DNA of 39,226 bases from Oligoflexales bacterium. GTDB lineage: Bacteria; Bdellovibrionota_B; Oligoflexia; Oligoflexales; Bog-1112. The notes beneath the pieces were generated by a model. It was given only the letters and a program-made list of their open reading frames with translations. It was not told the DNA's origin and made no database searches. This document shows, in pieces, positions 33,728 to 34,459 of the stretch. How positions within the stretch are numbered: the stretch's first letter is position 1; every line of letters begins with the position of its first letter. The stretch spans positions 1 through 39,226 of the forward strand of contig JAGNWK010000019.1 of NCBI GenBank assembly GCA_017985985.1. The letters are read 5' to 3'. Position numbers and translations under genes: made by a program.

Positions 33728-34459
33728 CTATTTAAATGACTTTACGAGTCCAAGCCGTACATCTATTTCATTTTGAAAAGCTGGATAACTGGCTTGGATC
33801 AGCCAGTCCCCTGAGCGCAGATCATTATTGATAATGAAATGGTCTTTGGCATTCAATGAACTGGCATGAACAACCACGTTCATCAGTCTCCCGACATAAC
33901 CATCAACCTTCTCATGACTAAGCAGCTCAACCGAACGACCCATTCCATCGAGCACGAAAGAGCCGGGATGCAGCTCCTGAGCCGAGACCACTCTCTCATC
34001 CCGAGTCACGAACGTGTGATCAGAGCTGACAAGCAACTCAGAACCATTCGAAAATACCAATTGCCGAACTTGCACAGGTAGAGAGGTGAAGTCTGAAGCC
34101 AAGAGGTTCGTAACCGGACTGCTCACCTGTTCTGAATAAGGTGAAGCCAGCTCCACCCCTAGAGCTAGCTCACCCAAAGTCATGGTCGACTCGAAGTCCG
34201 CAAGTTGAACCCTGGTATCTGGACTTGCACAGCTGCAAGGGCAGAGGCAGTTCCCCCCCGATGGACCAATAACGAGGTAAGGCTTCCCAGCAAGACCGCT
34301 GGAAATACAAAACTTATTCATTTCTGCATCCACAGCACTGCAGTGACCCTGTGGACAAGCTGCATAGGCAAAGGCCAGTTTTGGAAATGAAATAAACGCC
34401 AGAAGAAGACTAAGAGCACGTAGTGAACGCATAGAAGACCCCCTTGTAGCCACTTTCAA
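33728..34459 (-). CDS. Secreted Hint-domain (Hedgehog/intein-like) protein
   Basis: Signal peptide, then a Cys-rich stretch (ACPQGHCSAVD..CLCPCSC). ASPDTRVQLADFESTMTLGELALG and ..SELLVSSDHTFVTRDERVVSAQELHPGSFVL match the bacterial Hint_2 pattern (C-x-x-x-DT-x-V ... TpdHpvLv....A.eL.pGd.l). Confidence 0.5.
   Translation of the reverse strand: MKVATRGSSMRSLRALSLLLAFISFPKLAFAYAACPQGHCSAVDAEMNKFCISSGLAGKPYLVIGPSGGNCLCPCSCASPDTRVQLADFESTMTLGELALGVELASPYSEQVSSPVTNLLASDFTSLPVQVRQLVFSNGSELLVSSDHTFVTRDERVVSAQELHPGSFVLDGMGRSVELLSHEKVDGYVGRLMNVVVHASSLNAKDHFIINNDLRSGDWLIQASYPAFQNEIDVRLGLVKSFK

What the first reader, a model, noticed from the sequence alone, without database searches (positions are those of the whole stretch)
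33728..34459. Secreted Hint-domain protein next to a metzincin: possible autoprocessing toxin/effector module
The motifs C-x-x-x-SPDTRV...DHTFVTRDERVVSAQELHPGSFVL fit the Hint_2 autoproteolytic domain, which in bacteria typically releases an attached domain in polymorphic toxin systems. Here it is short (243 aa) with a Cys-rich N-terminal stretch (..CPQGHCSAVD..CLCPCSC) and sits beside a secreted metzincin and other effector-like genes.
Basis: partly seen in the sequence, partly recalled or inferred. Interest (0 to 1): 0.55.

Follow-up and report, generated by a model that had tools for sequence, protein, structure and literature searches.

The report
Secreted Cys-knot peptide with Hint domain
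The gene encodes a small secreted protein in which a 45-residue six-cysteine peptide sits directly in front of a self-cleaving Hint (hedgehog/intein-type) domain; it is always partnered with an orphan zinc protease, and it belongs to a barely studied bacterial Hint group rather than being an intein or a classical toxin-release module.

Summary

The layout is: signal peptide, an unknown six-Cys module (the best-conserved part), then a Hint domain. The Hint has an invariant Cys1 (CSC|A) and S-x-x-H. Its end reads S-G-D-W-x-x-Q instead of His-Asn, with no +1 nucleophile, followed by a 25-aa helix. It is therefore not an intein, and nothing toxin-like is attached.

The G-D…Q ending matches a poorly characterised secreted bacterial Hint subgroup noted by Bürglin (2008). 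In most relatives this Hint is the C-terminal domain, a hedgehog-like layout, which implies cleavage on the N-terminal side. My inferred reading is autocatalytic release, or transfer, of the six-Cys peptide.

In 8 of 8 loci the gene is linked to an orphan HExxHxxGxxH zincin that lacks a Met-turn. In other lineages the same module and Hint are fused to an M48-like zincin.

Verdict: a new variant of a known kind, of moderate interest.

The parts
33728..34432 (-). CDS of the Hint protein (234 aa plus stop), from the preferred ATG start. The mechanical ORF extends to a TTG at 34459.
34439..34445 (-). Shine-Dalgarno-like AAGGGGG, 6 nt upstream of the ATG
   Evidence: read directly from the sequence
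34367..34432 (-). Signal peptide, aa 1-22 (MRSLRALSLLLAFISFPKLAFA|YA). Predicted SPase I site after AFA; there is no lipobox.
   Evidence: inspection; no predictor was run
34232..34366 (-). Six-Cys module, aa 23-67 (C26, H30, C31, C42, C62, C64 and C66 invariant; S67 at position -1). This is the putative released cargo. It has no Pfam or PDB relative.
   Evidence: extra Hint-less copies in P0073
33806..34231 (-). Hint domain, aa 68-209: Cys68 (block A), S136-x-x-H139 (block B), N185, D197-H198, terminal S207-G208-D209
33731..33805 (-). C-terminal tail, aa 210-234, a predicted helix (W210, Q213 invariant; family-conserved Asp at position 217 (Pro in the window protein); R226). It occupies the position of the hedgehog SRR/ARR.
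32919..33650 (-). Partner gene: a 243-aa leader-bearing (by eye) orphan zincin with HEFLHNLGYQH (HExxHxxGxxH) and no Met-turn
31956..32675 (-). Cassette gene 3, 239 aa, N-terminal hydrophobic segment, no known domain
30505..31941 (-). Cassette gene 4, 478 aa, no known domain
28399..30384 (-). Cassette gene 5, 661 aa: an unknown ~450-aa N-terminal domain followed by C-terminal leucine-rich repeats

Best explanation
The gene encodes a Sec-exported precursor with a hedgehog-like ('Hog-type') layout. After signal-peptide removal, the protein is a 45-residue six-cysteine mini-domain joined through Ser67-Cys68 to a Hint domain.

Shown here: the Hint fold, the invariant Cys1 and S-x-x-H, the absence of His-Asn and of a +1 nucleophile, the C-terminal position of this Hint clade in most relatives, and the conserved linkage to a zincin.

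Inferred mechanism: Cys68 attacks the Ser67 carbonyl (N-to-S acyl shift, assisted by S136/H139). This forms a thioester that is resolved by water or another nucleophile. That frees, or transfers, the six-Cys peptide, which is probably held by three disulfides with Cys68 as the seventh, free, catalytic Cys. The Hint plus its C-terminal helix remains as the spent processing domain. No protein splicing can occur.

The product acts extracellularly together with the co-transcribed secreted zincin and the other cassette proteins. The setting is bacteria with a predatory or social (or possibly host-associated) lifestyle: Oligoflexia and Myxococcota. The released peptide is most likely an effector, ligand or protease modulator, but its target is unknown.
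For: - **Sequence homology to Hint.** The family profile (51 sequences) hits PDB 2lwy (bacterial intein-like domain) at E=2.2e-10 and the gp41-1 intein at 2.4e-7. In those alignments Cys68 aligns with residue 1 and S-x-x-H with T-x-x-H.
- **Pfam on family members.** 16 of 51 hit PT-HINT (best 3.5e-9) and 12 of 51 hit Hint_2 (best 6e-10).
- **Link to true Hint proteins.** The profile of the six closest homologues links to bona fide multi-Hint proteins at E of about 1e-16.
- **Invariant residues in 51 sequences.** C68, H139, N185, D209 and Q213 are invariant. S136 is 92% (the rest mostly Thr), S67 96% and G208 98%.
- **The terminal motif defines a clade.** [ST][GA]D[WYFLM]xxQ marks a clade in which the protein usually ends 8-38 residues after the Asp. 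Examples are P0121, P0130, P0137, P0150 and P0151, which carry other N-terminal cargo such as DUF4215 Cys-rich repeats. In those proteins only N-terminal cleavage makes sense.
- **The six-Cys module is conserved and modular.** It is the most conserved segment (46% versus 29% identity for the Hint). It also occurs as extra Hint-less copies in P0073.
- **Gene linkage.** Hint and zincin are adjacent or near-adjacent in the window and in L001-L006 and L009. In L004 the genes overlap by 4 nt.
- **Fusions.** The same module and Hint are fused to an M48-like HExxH domain in 450-900-aa relatives, one of which also carries Reprolysin_5 at E=8e-23.
Against: - No biochemical evidence exists; cleavage is inferred from conserved residues only.
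- The window protein alone fails every curated Hint threshold.
- The N-terminal module is modelled with only moderate confidence (pLDDT 63-75). The disulfide pattern is a guess; eight invariant Cys/His could instead bind metal.
- Several fused relatives lack a recognisable signal peptide.
- The invariant Asp209 could support C-terminal cleavage. Inteins ending in Asp are known (my recollection of Amitai et al. 2004, not read here).
- In the zincin-fused relatives there is a large C-terminal domain that could be the released part.
- The role of the zincin is unknown. It is not detectably homologous to the fused M48-like domain.
Confidence: 0.55

Rival explanations
1. Pretoxin-type C-terminal cleavage. 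The invariant Asp209 cyclises in place of the intein Asn and cuts the D209-W210 bond. This would release the 25-aa helical tail here and the zincin domain in the fused relatives, possibly together with N-terminal cleavage.
For: D209 is invariant and sits at the end of the last Hint strand, where inteins have Asn. Fused relatives place an M48-like or reprolysin-like protease directly after the motif, as PT-HINT proteins do with toxins.
Against: - The penultimate His needed for efficient cyclisation is replaced by Gly (98%).
- The motif continues across the supposed cut site (W210, invariant Q213), and that stretch is conserved irrespective of what follows.
- Many clade members end only 8-20 residues after the Asp, leaving nothing worth releasing.
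- The tail carries conserved polar residues (Asp at position 217 in 84% of family members, though Pro in the window protein; R226). These suggest packing on the domain.
Confidence: 0.15
2. The Hint domain does not hydrolyse but transfers. The Ser67 thioester is attacked by a specific nucleophile (a lipid, a cell-wall amine or a partner protein). This covalently attaches the six-Cys peptide, as hedgehog attaches cholesterol, and the C-terminal helix acts as the adduct-recognition region.
For: - The protein has a hedgehog-like domain order, with a conserved helix exactly where the SRR/ARR lies.
- An invariant acidic residue and Gln lie near the active-site end of the fold.
- The nearest structural neighbours include BIL2 of the Tetrahymena BUBL locus, which (from my own knowledge) is proposed to act in conjugation.
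Against: There is no evidence for any acceptor. The tail is short (25 aa against about 60 in Hh) and polar rather than lipid-binding in its conserved positions. Shorter clade members lack it altogether.
Confidence: 0.12
3. The Hint domain is catalytically silent or conditionally locked. Cys68 is tied into the neighbouring CxCxCxC cluster by a disulfide (a 'redox trap') or by metal. The protein would then act intact as a binding or adaptor subunit or inhibitor of the partner zincin, cleaving only in a reducing compartment, if at all.
For: There is an odd number (7) of invariant Cys, with Cys at positions -2 and -4 from Cys1 plus an invariant His30. Redox-trapped inteins and Zn inhibition of inteins are established (my own knowledge; 6owu is a Prp8 intein with Zn2+). 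Co-inheritance with the zincin is strict.
Against: Complete conservation of S/T-x-x-H and N185 is hard to explain without catalysis. The Hint-less copies of the module carry only six Cys, so the seventh belongs to the Hint.
Confidence: 0.13
4. It is an ordinary intein or a remnant of one.
For: The weak single-sequence hits are to intein models.
Against: It has no His-Asn, no +1 Cys/Ser/Thr and no conserved host protein interrupted. The 'exteins' are a signal peptide with a 45-aa module on one side and a 25-aa tail on the other.
Confidence: 0.01

Closest known systems
Unnamed bacterial C-terminal Hint subgroup of Dassa & Pietrokovski (2005) and Bürglin 2008 (MXAN_6253, STIAU_1829, plu1731 and others; PMC2362128 section 12 and supplementary file 10)
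   Same: Signal peptide, a Hint-like domain at the C-terminus, conserved Cys upstream, an S-C junction (NSC|MA against CSC|A), and the same ending '...NG..(V/S)GD...Q'. Both include myxobacteria.
   Different: Those proteins carry other, larger N-terminal regions. This family has a compact six-Cys module, a longer conserved helical tail and an obligate zincin neighbour. None has been studied experimentally as far as the held literature shows.
Hedgehog / Hog proteins (Hh, and nematode warthog, groundhog and quahog)
   Different: About 18-20% identity only. The junction is S|C rather than G|CF. No counterpart of the cholesterol-activating Asp46 was identified. The tail is 25 aa, not a sterol-recognition region. 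The organism is bacterial.
Bacterial intein-like (BIL) domains, A-type (e.g. Clostridium thermocellum BIL, PDB 2lwy) and B-type / Pfam Hint_2
   Different: A-type BILs end in His-Asn, and this protein ends in Gly-Asp. BILs sit inside variable regions of large proteins, whereas here the flanks are short and highly conserved.
PT-HINT of polymorphic toxin systems
   Same: Same superfamily. The fused relatives place a metallopeptidase-like domain after the Hint.
   Different: The window protein has no C-terminal toxin, no long N-terminal delivery region and no variable tip. PF07591 does not hit it.
Adamalysin/reprolysin-type metzincins (for the neighbour gene)
   Same: Exact HExxHxxGxxH motif. The motif region aligns to snake-venom and ADAM proteases (E=0.05-0.2).
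   Different: Below all Pfam cut-offs. Only about 40 residues follow the motif, and no conserved Met-turn is present. It belongs to an orphan family of about 50 members.

Membership tests
Hint superfamily (hedgehog/intein fold) | Hint beta-fold | tested here: met
Hint superfamily (hedgehog/intein fold) | Block A nucleophile (Cys/Ser) as first residue | tested here: met
   Cys68 is invariant in 51 of 51 and aligns to residue 1 of 2lwy.
Hint superfamily (hedgehog/intein fold) | Block B T/S-x-x-H | tested here: met
   S136 is 92% (Thr in 3 sequences) and H139 is 100%. It aligns to the T-x-x-H of 2lwy.
Hint superfamily (hedgehog/intein fold) | Significant profile match | tested here: met
   Met at family level: E=2.2e-10 to PDB BIL, and 16 of 51 members hit PT-HINT. 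The single window sequence alone is sub-threshold (E=0.036).
Inteins | C-terminal His-Asn | tested here: not met
   The corresponding positions are Gly208 (98%) and Asp209 (100%).
Inteins | +1 Cys/Ser/Thr on the C-extein | tested here: not met
   Position 210 is W, Y, F, L or M.
Inteins | Insertion in a conserved host protein | tested here: not met
   The flanks are a signal peptide with a 45-aa module and a 25-aa tail.
Pfam Hint_2 (PF13403) / B-type BIL | Match to the model above the gathering score | tested here: not met
   The window protein has no hit at E<=1. 12 of 51 relatives hit at E<=0.01, no more often than PT-HINT or Vint.
PT-HINT / polymorphic toxin | Hint immediately upstream of a variable C-terminal toxin domain | tested here: not met
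   Only a conserved 25-aa tail follows. This feature is met only in the fused relatives.
PT-HINT / polymorphic toxin | Long N-terminal delivery or filament region | tested here: not met
   The N-terminal part is 22 aa of signal plus a 45-aa module.
PT-HINT / polymorphic toxin | Cognate immunity gene downstream | not testable with these tools
   The downstream genes are conserved, leader-bearing (by eye) proteins of unknown function.
Hog-type (hedgehog-like) precursors | Secreted N-terminal cargo followed by a C-terminal Hint | tested here: met
Hog-type (hedgehog-like) precursors | Adduct/sterol-recognition region after the Hint and adduct transfer | tested here: inconclusive
   A conserved 25-aa helix is present, but it is short. 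Transfer chemistry cannot be tested in silico.
Bürglin/Dassa bacterial C-terminal Hint subgroup | Signal peptide, C-terminal Hint, ending NG..(V/S)GD...Q | tested here: met
   Motif comparison with supplementary file 10 of PMC2362128. The published sequences themselves could not be aligned here.
Metzincins (neighbour gene 32919-33650) | HExxHxxGxxH | tested here: met
   HEFLHNLGYQH is invariant in 5 of 5.
Metzincins (neighbour gene 32919-33650) | Conserved Met-turn downstream | tested here: not met
   No conserved Met lies in the ~40 residues after the motif.
Metzincins (neighbour gene 32919-33650) | Profile match above threshold | tested here: not met
   Reprolysin_3 scores 15.9 bits against a cut-off of 22.4. 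The PDB profile search gives E=0.05 over the motif only.

The most novel reading that the evidence does not exclude
This is a bacterial counterpart of hedgehog-type maturation. The Hint domain does not merely cut; it uses the Ser67 thioester to attach the six-Cys peptide covalently to a specific acceptor (lipid, cell envelope or partner protein), guided by the G-D-W-x-x-Q/helix extension. The obligate zincin partner then sheds or activates the conjugate. Such a peptide-ligating secretion cassette in Oligoflexia and Myxococcota could represent the ancestral state of Hog proteins.
Probability: 0.1. Interest if true: 0.85.

Novelty: new variant of a known kind. Interest (0 to 1): 0.5.

Why it matters
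Hint domains are well understood as inteins, in hedgehog and in toxin release. The bacterial clade ending in G-D…Q was flagged about twenty years ago and, as far as the held literature shows, never studied.

This locus provides a minimal member of about 210 mature residues. It carries a tiny, highly conserved, previously undescribed cysteine-rich cargo and an obligate protease partner, so the chemistry can be tested directly with one small recombinant protein.

If the N-terminal peptide is indeed released or transferred, it would be a new route for maturing secreted disulfide-rich peptides in predatory and social bacteria. It would also give a simple bacterial model for hedgehog-like autoprocessing and its evolutionary origin.

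If it proves to be plain self-cleavage, it is still an addition to the catalogue of Hint architectures, together with two orphan families to name: the six-Cys module and the zincin.

Tried and rejected
- **Single-sequence searches.** Pfam and NCBIfam gave only sub-threshold intein hints. A single-sequence PDB search found nothing relevant.
- **First AF2 run.** With only 6 sequences the model was unusable (pLDDT 39). It was repeated with 51 sequences.
- The afdb50 fold library was not available. The scan with A1 found one locus only.
- **Is the neighbour zincin the split-off version of the fused zincin domain?** phmmer found no similarity. The fused domain is M48-like and the neighbour is reprolysin-motif-like, so the 'Rosetta stone' argument holds only at the level of 'a zincin'.
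- **MACPF in the LRR protein.** I suspected this from a motif read by eye in its N-terminal domain. No Pfam, PDB or homologue annotation supports it, so I dropped it.
- **Defence systems.** PADLOC models gave no hits for any of the five cassette proteins.
- **The six-Cys module alone.** It had no hits in Pfam or PDB at E<=10.
- **Lipoprotein reading of Cys26.** Rejected, because positions -3 to -1 are not lipobox-like in the homologues.
- **Literature.** Searches for MXAN_6253, plu1731 and STIAU_1829 found no functional study.

Full report
**1. The observation**

The mechanical ORF begins at a TTG, but the ATG at 34432 is the better start. It is preceded by AAGGGGG at a 6-nt spacing, and all homologues align from that Met. 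The identical protein is annotated as 234 aa in an Oligoflexales bacterium MAG (KA436_04640).

The N-terminus, MRSLRALSLLLAFISFPKLAFA|YA, looks like an SPase I signal peptide. This is by inspection; no predictor was run. It is not a lipoprotein signal, because the residues before Cys26 are not lipobox-like in any homologue.

**2. Is it a Hint domain?**

Taken alone, the sequence fails.
- Pfam gives Intein_splicing at E=0.036, 14 bits against a 35.8-bit cut-off.
- NCBIfam gives intein-containing models at E=0.015-0.11.
- The PDB gives nothing relevant.

The word-indexed search found only five relatives. An exhaustive profile search with those six sequences found 1034 representatives at E<=1e-3. 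These include bona fide multi-Hint proteins at about 1e-16, confirmed by Pfam: P0081 hits PT-HINT at 1e-90 and P0111 hits Hint at 4e-31.

A profile of 51 same-architecture members (A2) hits the solved bacterial intein-like domain 2lwy at E=2.2e-10. It also hits the gp41-1 intein, DnaE inteins and hedgehog. In these alignments Cys68 lies on residue 1 and S136-x-x-H139 lies on the T-x-x-H block.

Scanned individually against Pfam, the 51 members hit as follows:
- 16 hit PT-HINT.
- 16 hit Intein_splicing.
- 15 hit Vint.
- 12 hit Hint_2.

This means superfamily membership without a home family.

**3. Anatomy**

From, the protein has four parts.
- **Signal peptide (1-22).**
- **Six-Cys module (23-67).** It has invariant C26, H30, C31, C42, C62, C64 and C66. 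It is predicted as a helix packed on a hairpin, with moderate confidence (pLDDT 63-75). It ends in the invariant C-x-C-x-C-S-C, whose last Cys is Hint residue 1.
- **Hint domain (68-209).** Conserved residues are C68, T73, S136, H139, N185, D197-H198 and the terminal S207-G208-D209.
- **C-terminal helix (210-234).** It has W210 and invariant Q213. R226 is conserved, and position 217 is Asp in 84% of family members (Pro in the window protein).

The module is the best-conserved part, at 46% mean identity to the window protein against 29% for the Hint. It has no relative in Pfam or the PDB, even at E<=10. In P0073, further copies of the module occur without a Hint, and those copies carry six Cys, not seven. 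The module is therefore a separate six-Cys domain, and the seventh Cys belongs to the Hint.

**4. What it is not**

The positions that hold His-Asn in inteins and A-type BILs are Gly (98%) and Asp (100%). The next residue is aromatic or aliphatic, never Cys, Ser or Thr. Splicing is therefore excluded, and it is not an intein.

Nothing toxin-like is attached, the flanks are conserved rather than polymorphic, and there is no delivery domain. It is therefore not a polymorphic-toxin PT-HINT arrangement either.

**5. The clade**

The ending [ST][GA]D[WYFLM]xxQ recurs in about 100 of the 150 best representatives. These fall into two architectures.
- **Short-tail proteins (the majority).** The protein ends 8-38 residues after the Asp. 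This group includes the ~230-aa family. It also includes larger proteins with other N-terminal regions, such as P0137 with DUF4215 Cys-rich repeats.
- **Zincin fusions.** The same six-Cys module and Hint are followed by a 250-650-aa extension. It contains an M48-like HExxH domain (LAHEvGHH…SCEGQsDYWG). In P0082 it also contains a Reprolysin_5 domain at E=8e-23. Some of these lack the HExxH motif or a signal peptide.

The same ending is visible in the supplementary alignment of Bürglin 2008. There, MXAN_6253, STIAU_1829, plu1731 and others read '…aGGfLVGDmtMQ', with an 'NSC|MA' junction. The text calls them a further, poorly characterised group of secreted bacterial proteins with a C-terminal Hint-like domain, already noticed by Dassa and Pietrokovski (PMC2362128). 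I found no functional study of any member. NCBI labels the Sorangium member simply 'Hint domain-containing protein'.

**6. Genomic context**

The gene heads a minus-strand cassette:
- the Hint gene
- a 243-aa zincin with a hydrophobic N-terminal leader (HEFLHNLGYQH)
- a 239-aa protein
- a 478-aa protein
- a 661-aa protein with an unknown N-terminal domain and C-terminal LRRs

Housekeeping genes flank the cassette (GlyRS, a DbpA helicase), and there is no compositional break.

The Hint-zincin pair recurs in every locus retrieved through the Hint: L001, L002, L003, L004, L005 (Sorangium sp. So ce134) and L006. It also recurs in L009, retrieved through the zincin. Spacing is tight, and in L004 the two genes overlap by 4 nt.

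The zincin is better conserved than the Hint, at 45-66% against 35-64% identity. It belongs to an orphan family of about 50 proteins of ~240 aa with no Pfam domain. Two divergent members of that family, from a Polyangiales MAG and a cyanobacterial plasmid, lack a Hint nearby.

Calling it a metzincin is only half justified. The extended motif is exact, but profile matches are sub-threshold, and no Met-turn is conserved in the ~40 residues that follow. It is not detectably related to the M48-like domain of the fused proteins. The fusion evidence therefore links the Hint with 'a zincin', not with this family specifically.

**7. Mechanism**

*Shown:* the fold, the N-terminal catalytic set (Cys1, S/T-x-x-H), the loss of the C-terminal splicing set, the hedgehog-like domain order in most clade members, and the operon partnership.

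*Inferred:* Cys68 performs an N-to-S acyl shift at Ser67-Cys68. The thioester is resolved by water or another nucleophile. The six-Cys peptide (aa 23-67, about 4.7 kDa) is released or transferred. The Hint and its helix are left over.

I put about 0.55 on N-terminal autoprocessing being the core function. The rivals are:
- C-terminal cleavage at Asp209 (0.15). It is weakened by the missing penultimate His, by the motif running across the supposed cut site, and by members that end just after it.
- Hedgehog-like adduct transfer (0.12).
- A redox- or metal-locked, mostly intact protein acting on the zincin (0.13).

What the peptide does is unknown. Its high conservation argues for a specific partner, perhaps the zincin, rather than a variable toxin.

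**8. Verdict**

The specific family (Hint_2), the expected His-Asn dyad and the polymorphic-toxin logic do not hold.

The finding is a new variant of a known kind. It is a minimal member of a long-neglected bacterial 'Hog-like' Hint clade. It carries an undescribed six-Cys cargo and an obligate orphan zincin partner, and it is found in Oligoflexia and Myxococcota.

Interest is moderate (0.5). The chemistry is predictable and the clade was noted before. Against that, the system is small, conserved, experimentally tractable and relevant to the origin of hedgehog-type processing.

Noticed in passing
window 27288-28253 (+): A 321-aa ORF matches Pfam OTU-like cysteine protease just above the gathering score (E=4.9e-5, 24.3 against 23.3 bits). 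OTU deubiquitinase-like proteins in bacteria are usually effectors aimed at eukaryotic hosts. Together with the neighbouring LRR protein, this hints at a eukaryote-associated lifestyle for this Oligoflexales bacterium.
   Followed up: no
window 28399-30384 (-): The ~450-aa N-terminal domain of the LRR protein has no Pfam or PDB match. It defines a family of about 24 proteins of ~650 aa in Oligoflexia/Bdellovibrionota. Several appear to lie on the same contigs as the zincin family, judged by matching contig lengths. A MACPF-like motif I read by eye is unsupported.
   Followed up: partly
L005 8600-9382 (Sorangium sp. So ce134, CP150314.1): The ORF between the Hint gene and the zincin begins 'MVKLEFHDSTGVTVSQNHTFVT'. 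This looks like the block-B region of this Hint family and may be a remnant of a second, decayed Hint copy.
   Followed up: no
P0073 (651 aa, metagenomic), residues ~560-651: After module, Hint and M48-like zincin, this protein carries two further copies of the six-Cys module without a Hint. This shows that the module is an independent repeatable domain.
   Followed up: partly
window 32676-32918: A 243-bp gap separates the zincin stop from the start of cassette gene 3. The same junction is 9 bp in L001. I did not examine it for a small ORF or a regulatory element.
   Followed up: no
window 24071-25012 (-): A canonical Peptidase_M48 (HtpX-like) gene at E=2.9e-37. It is probably housekeeping and unrelated to the M48-like domains fused to Hint in other lineages.
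   Followed up: no
window 22077-23624 (-) and 25794-25870 (+): A multihaem cytochrome c (Cytochrome_C554, E=1e-15) and the only RNA gene in the window, tRNA-Gly(GCC).
   Followed up: no
window 12001-13000: A local G+C peak (0.54 against about 0.44 in neighbouring windows) with positive GC skew (+0.21) lies inside the 524-aa ORF 11788-13362. It contains no Rfam match.
   Followed up: no
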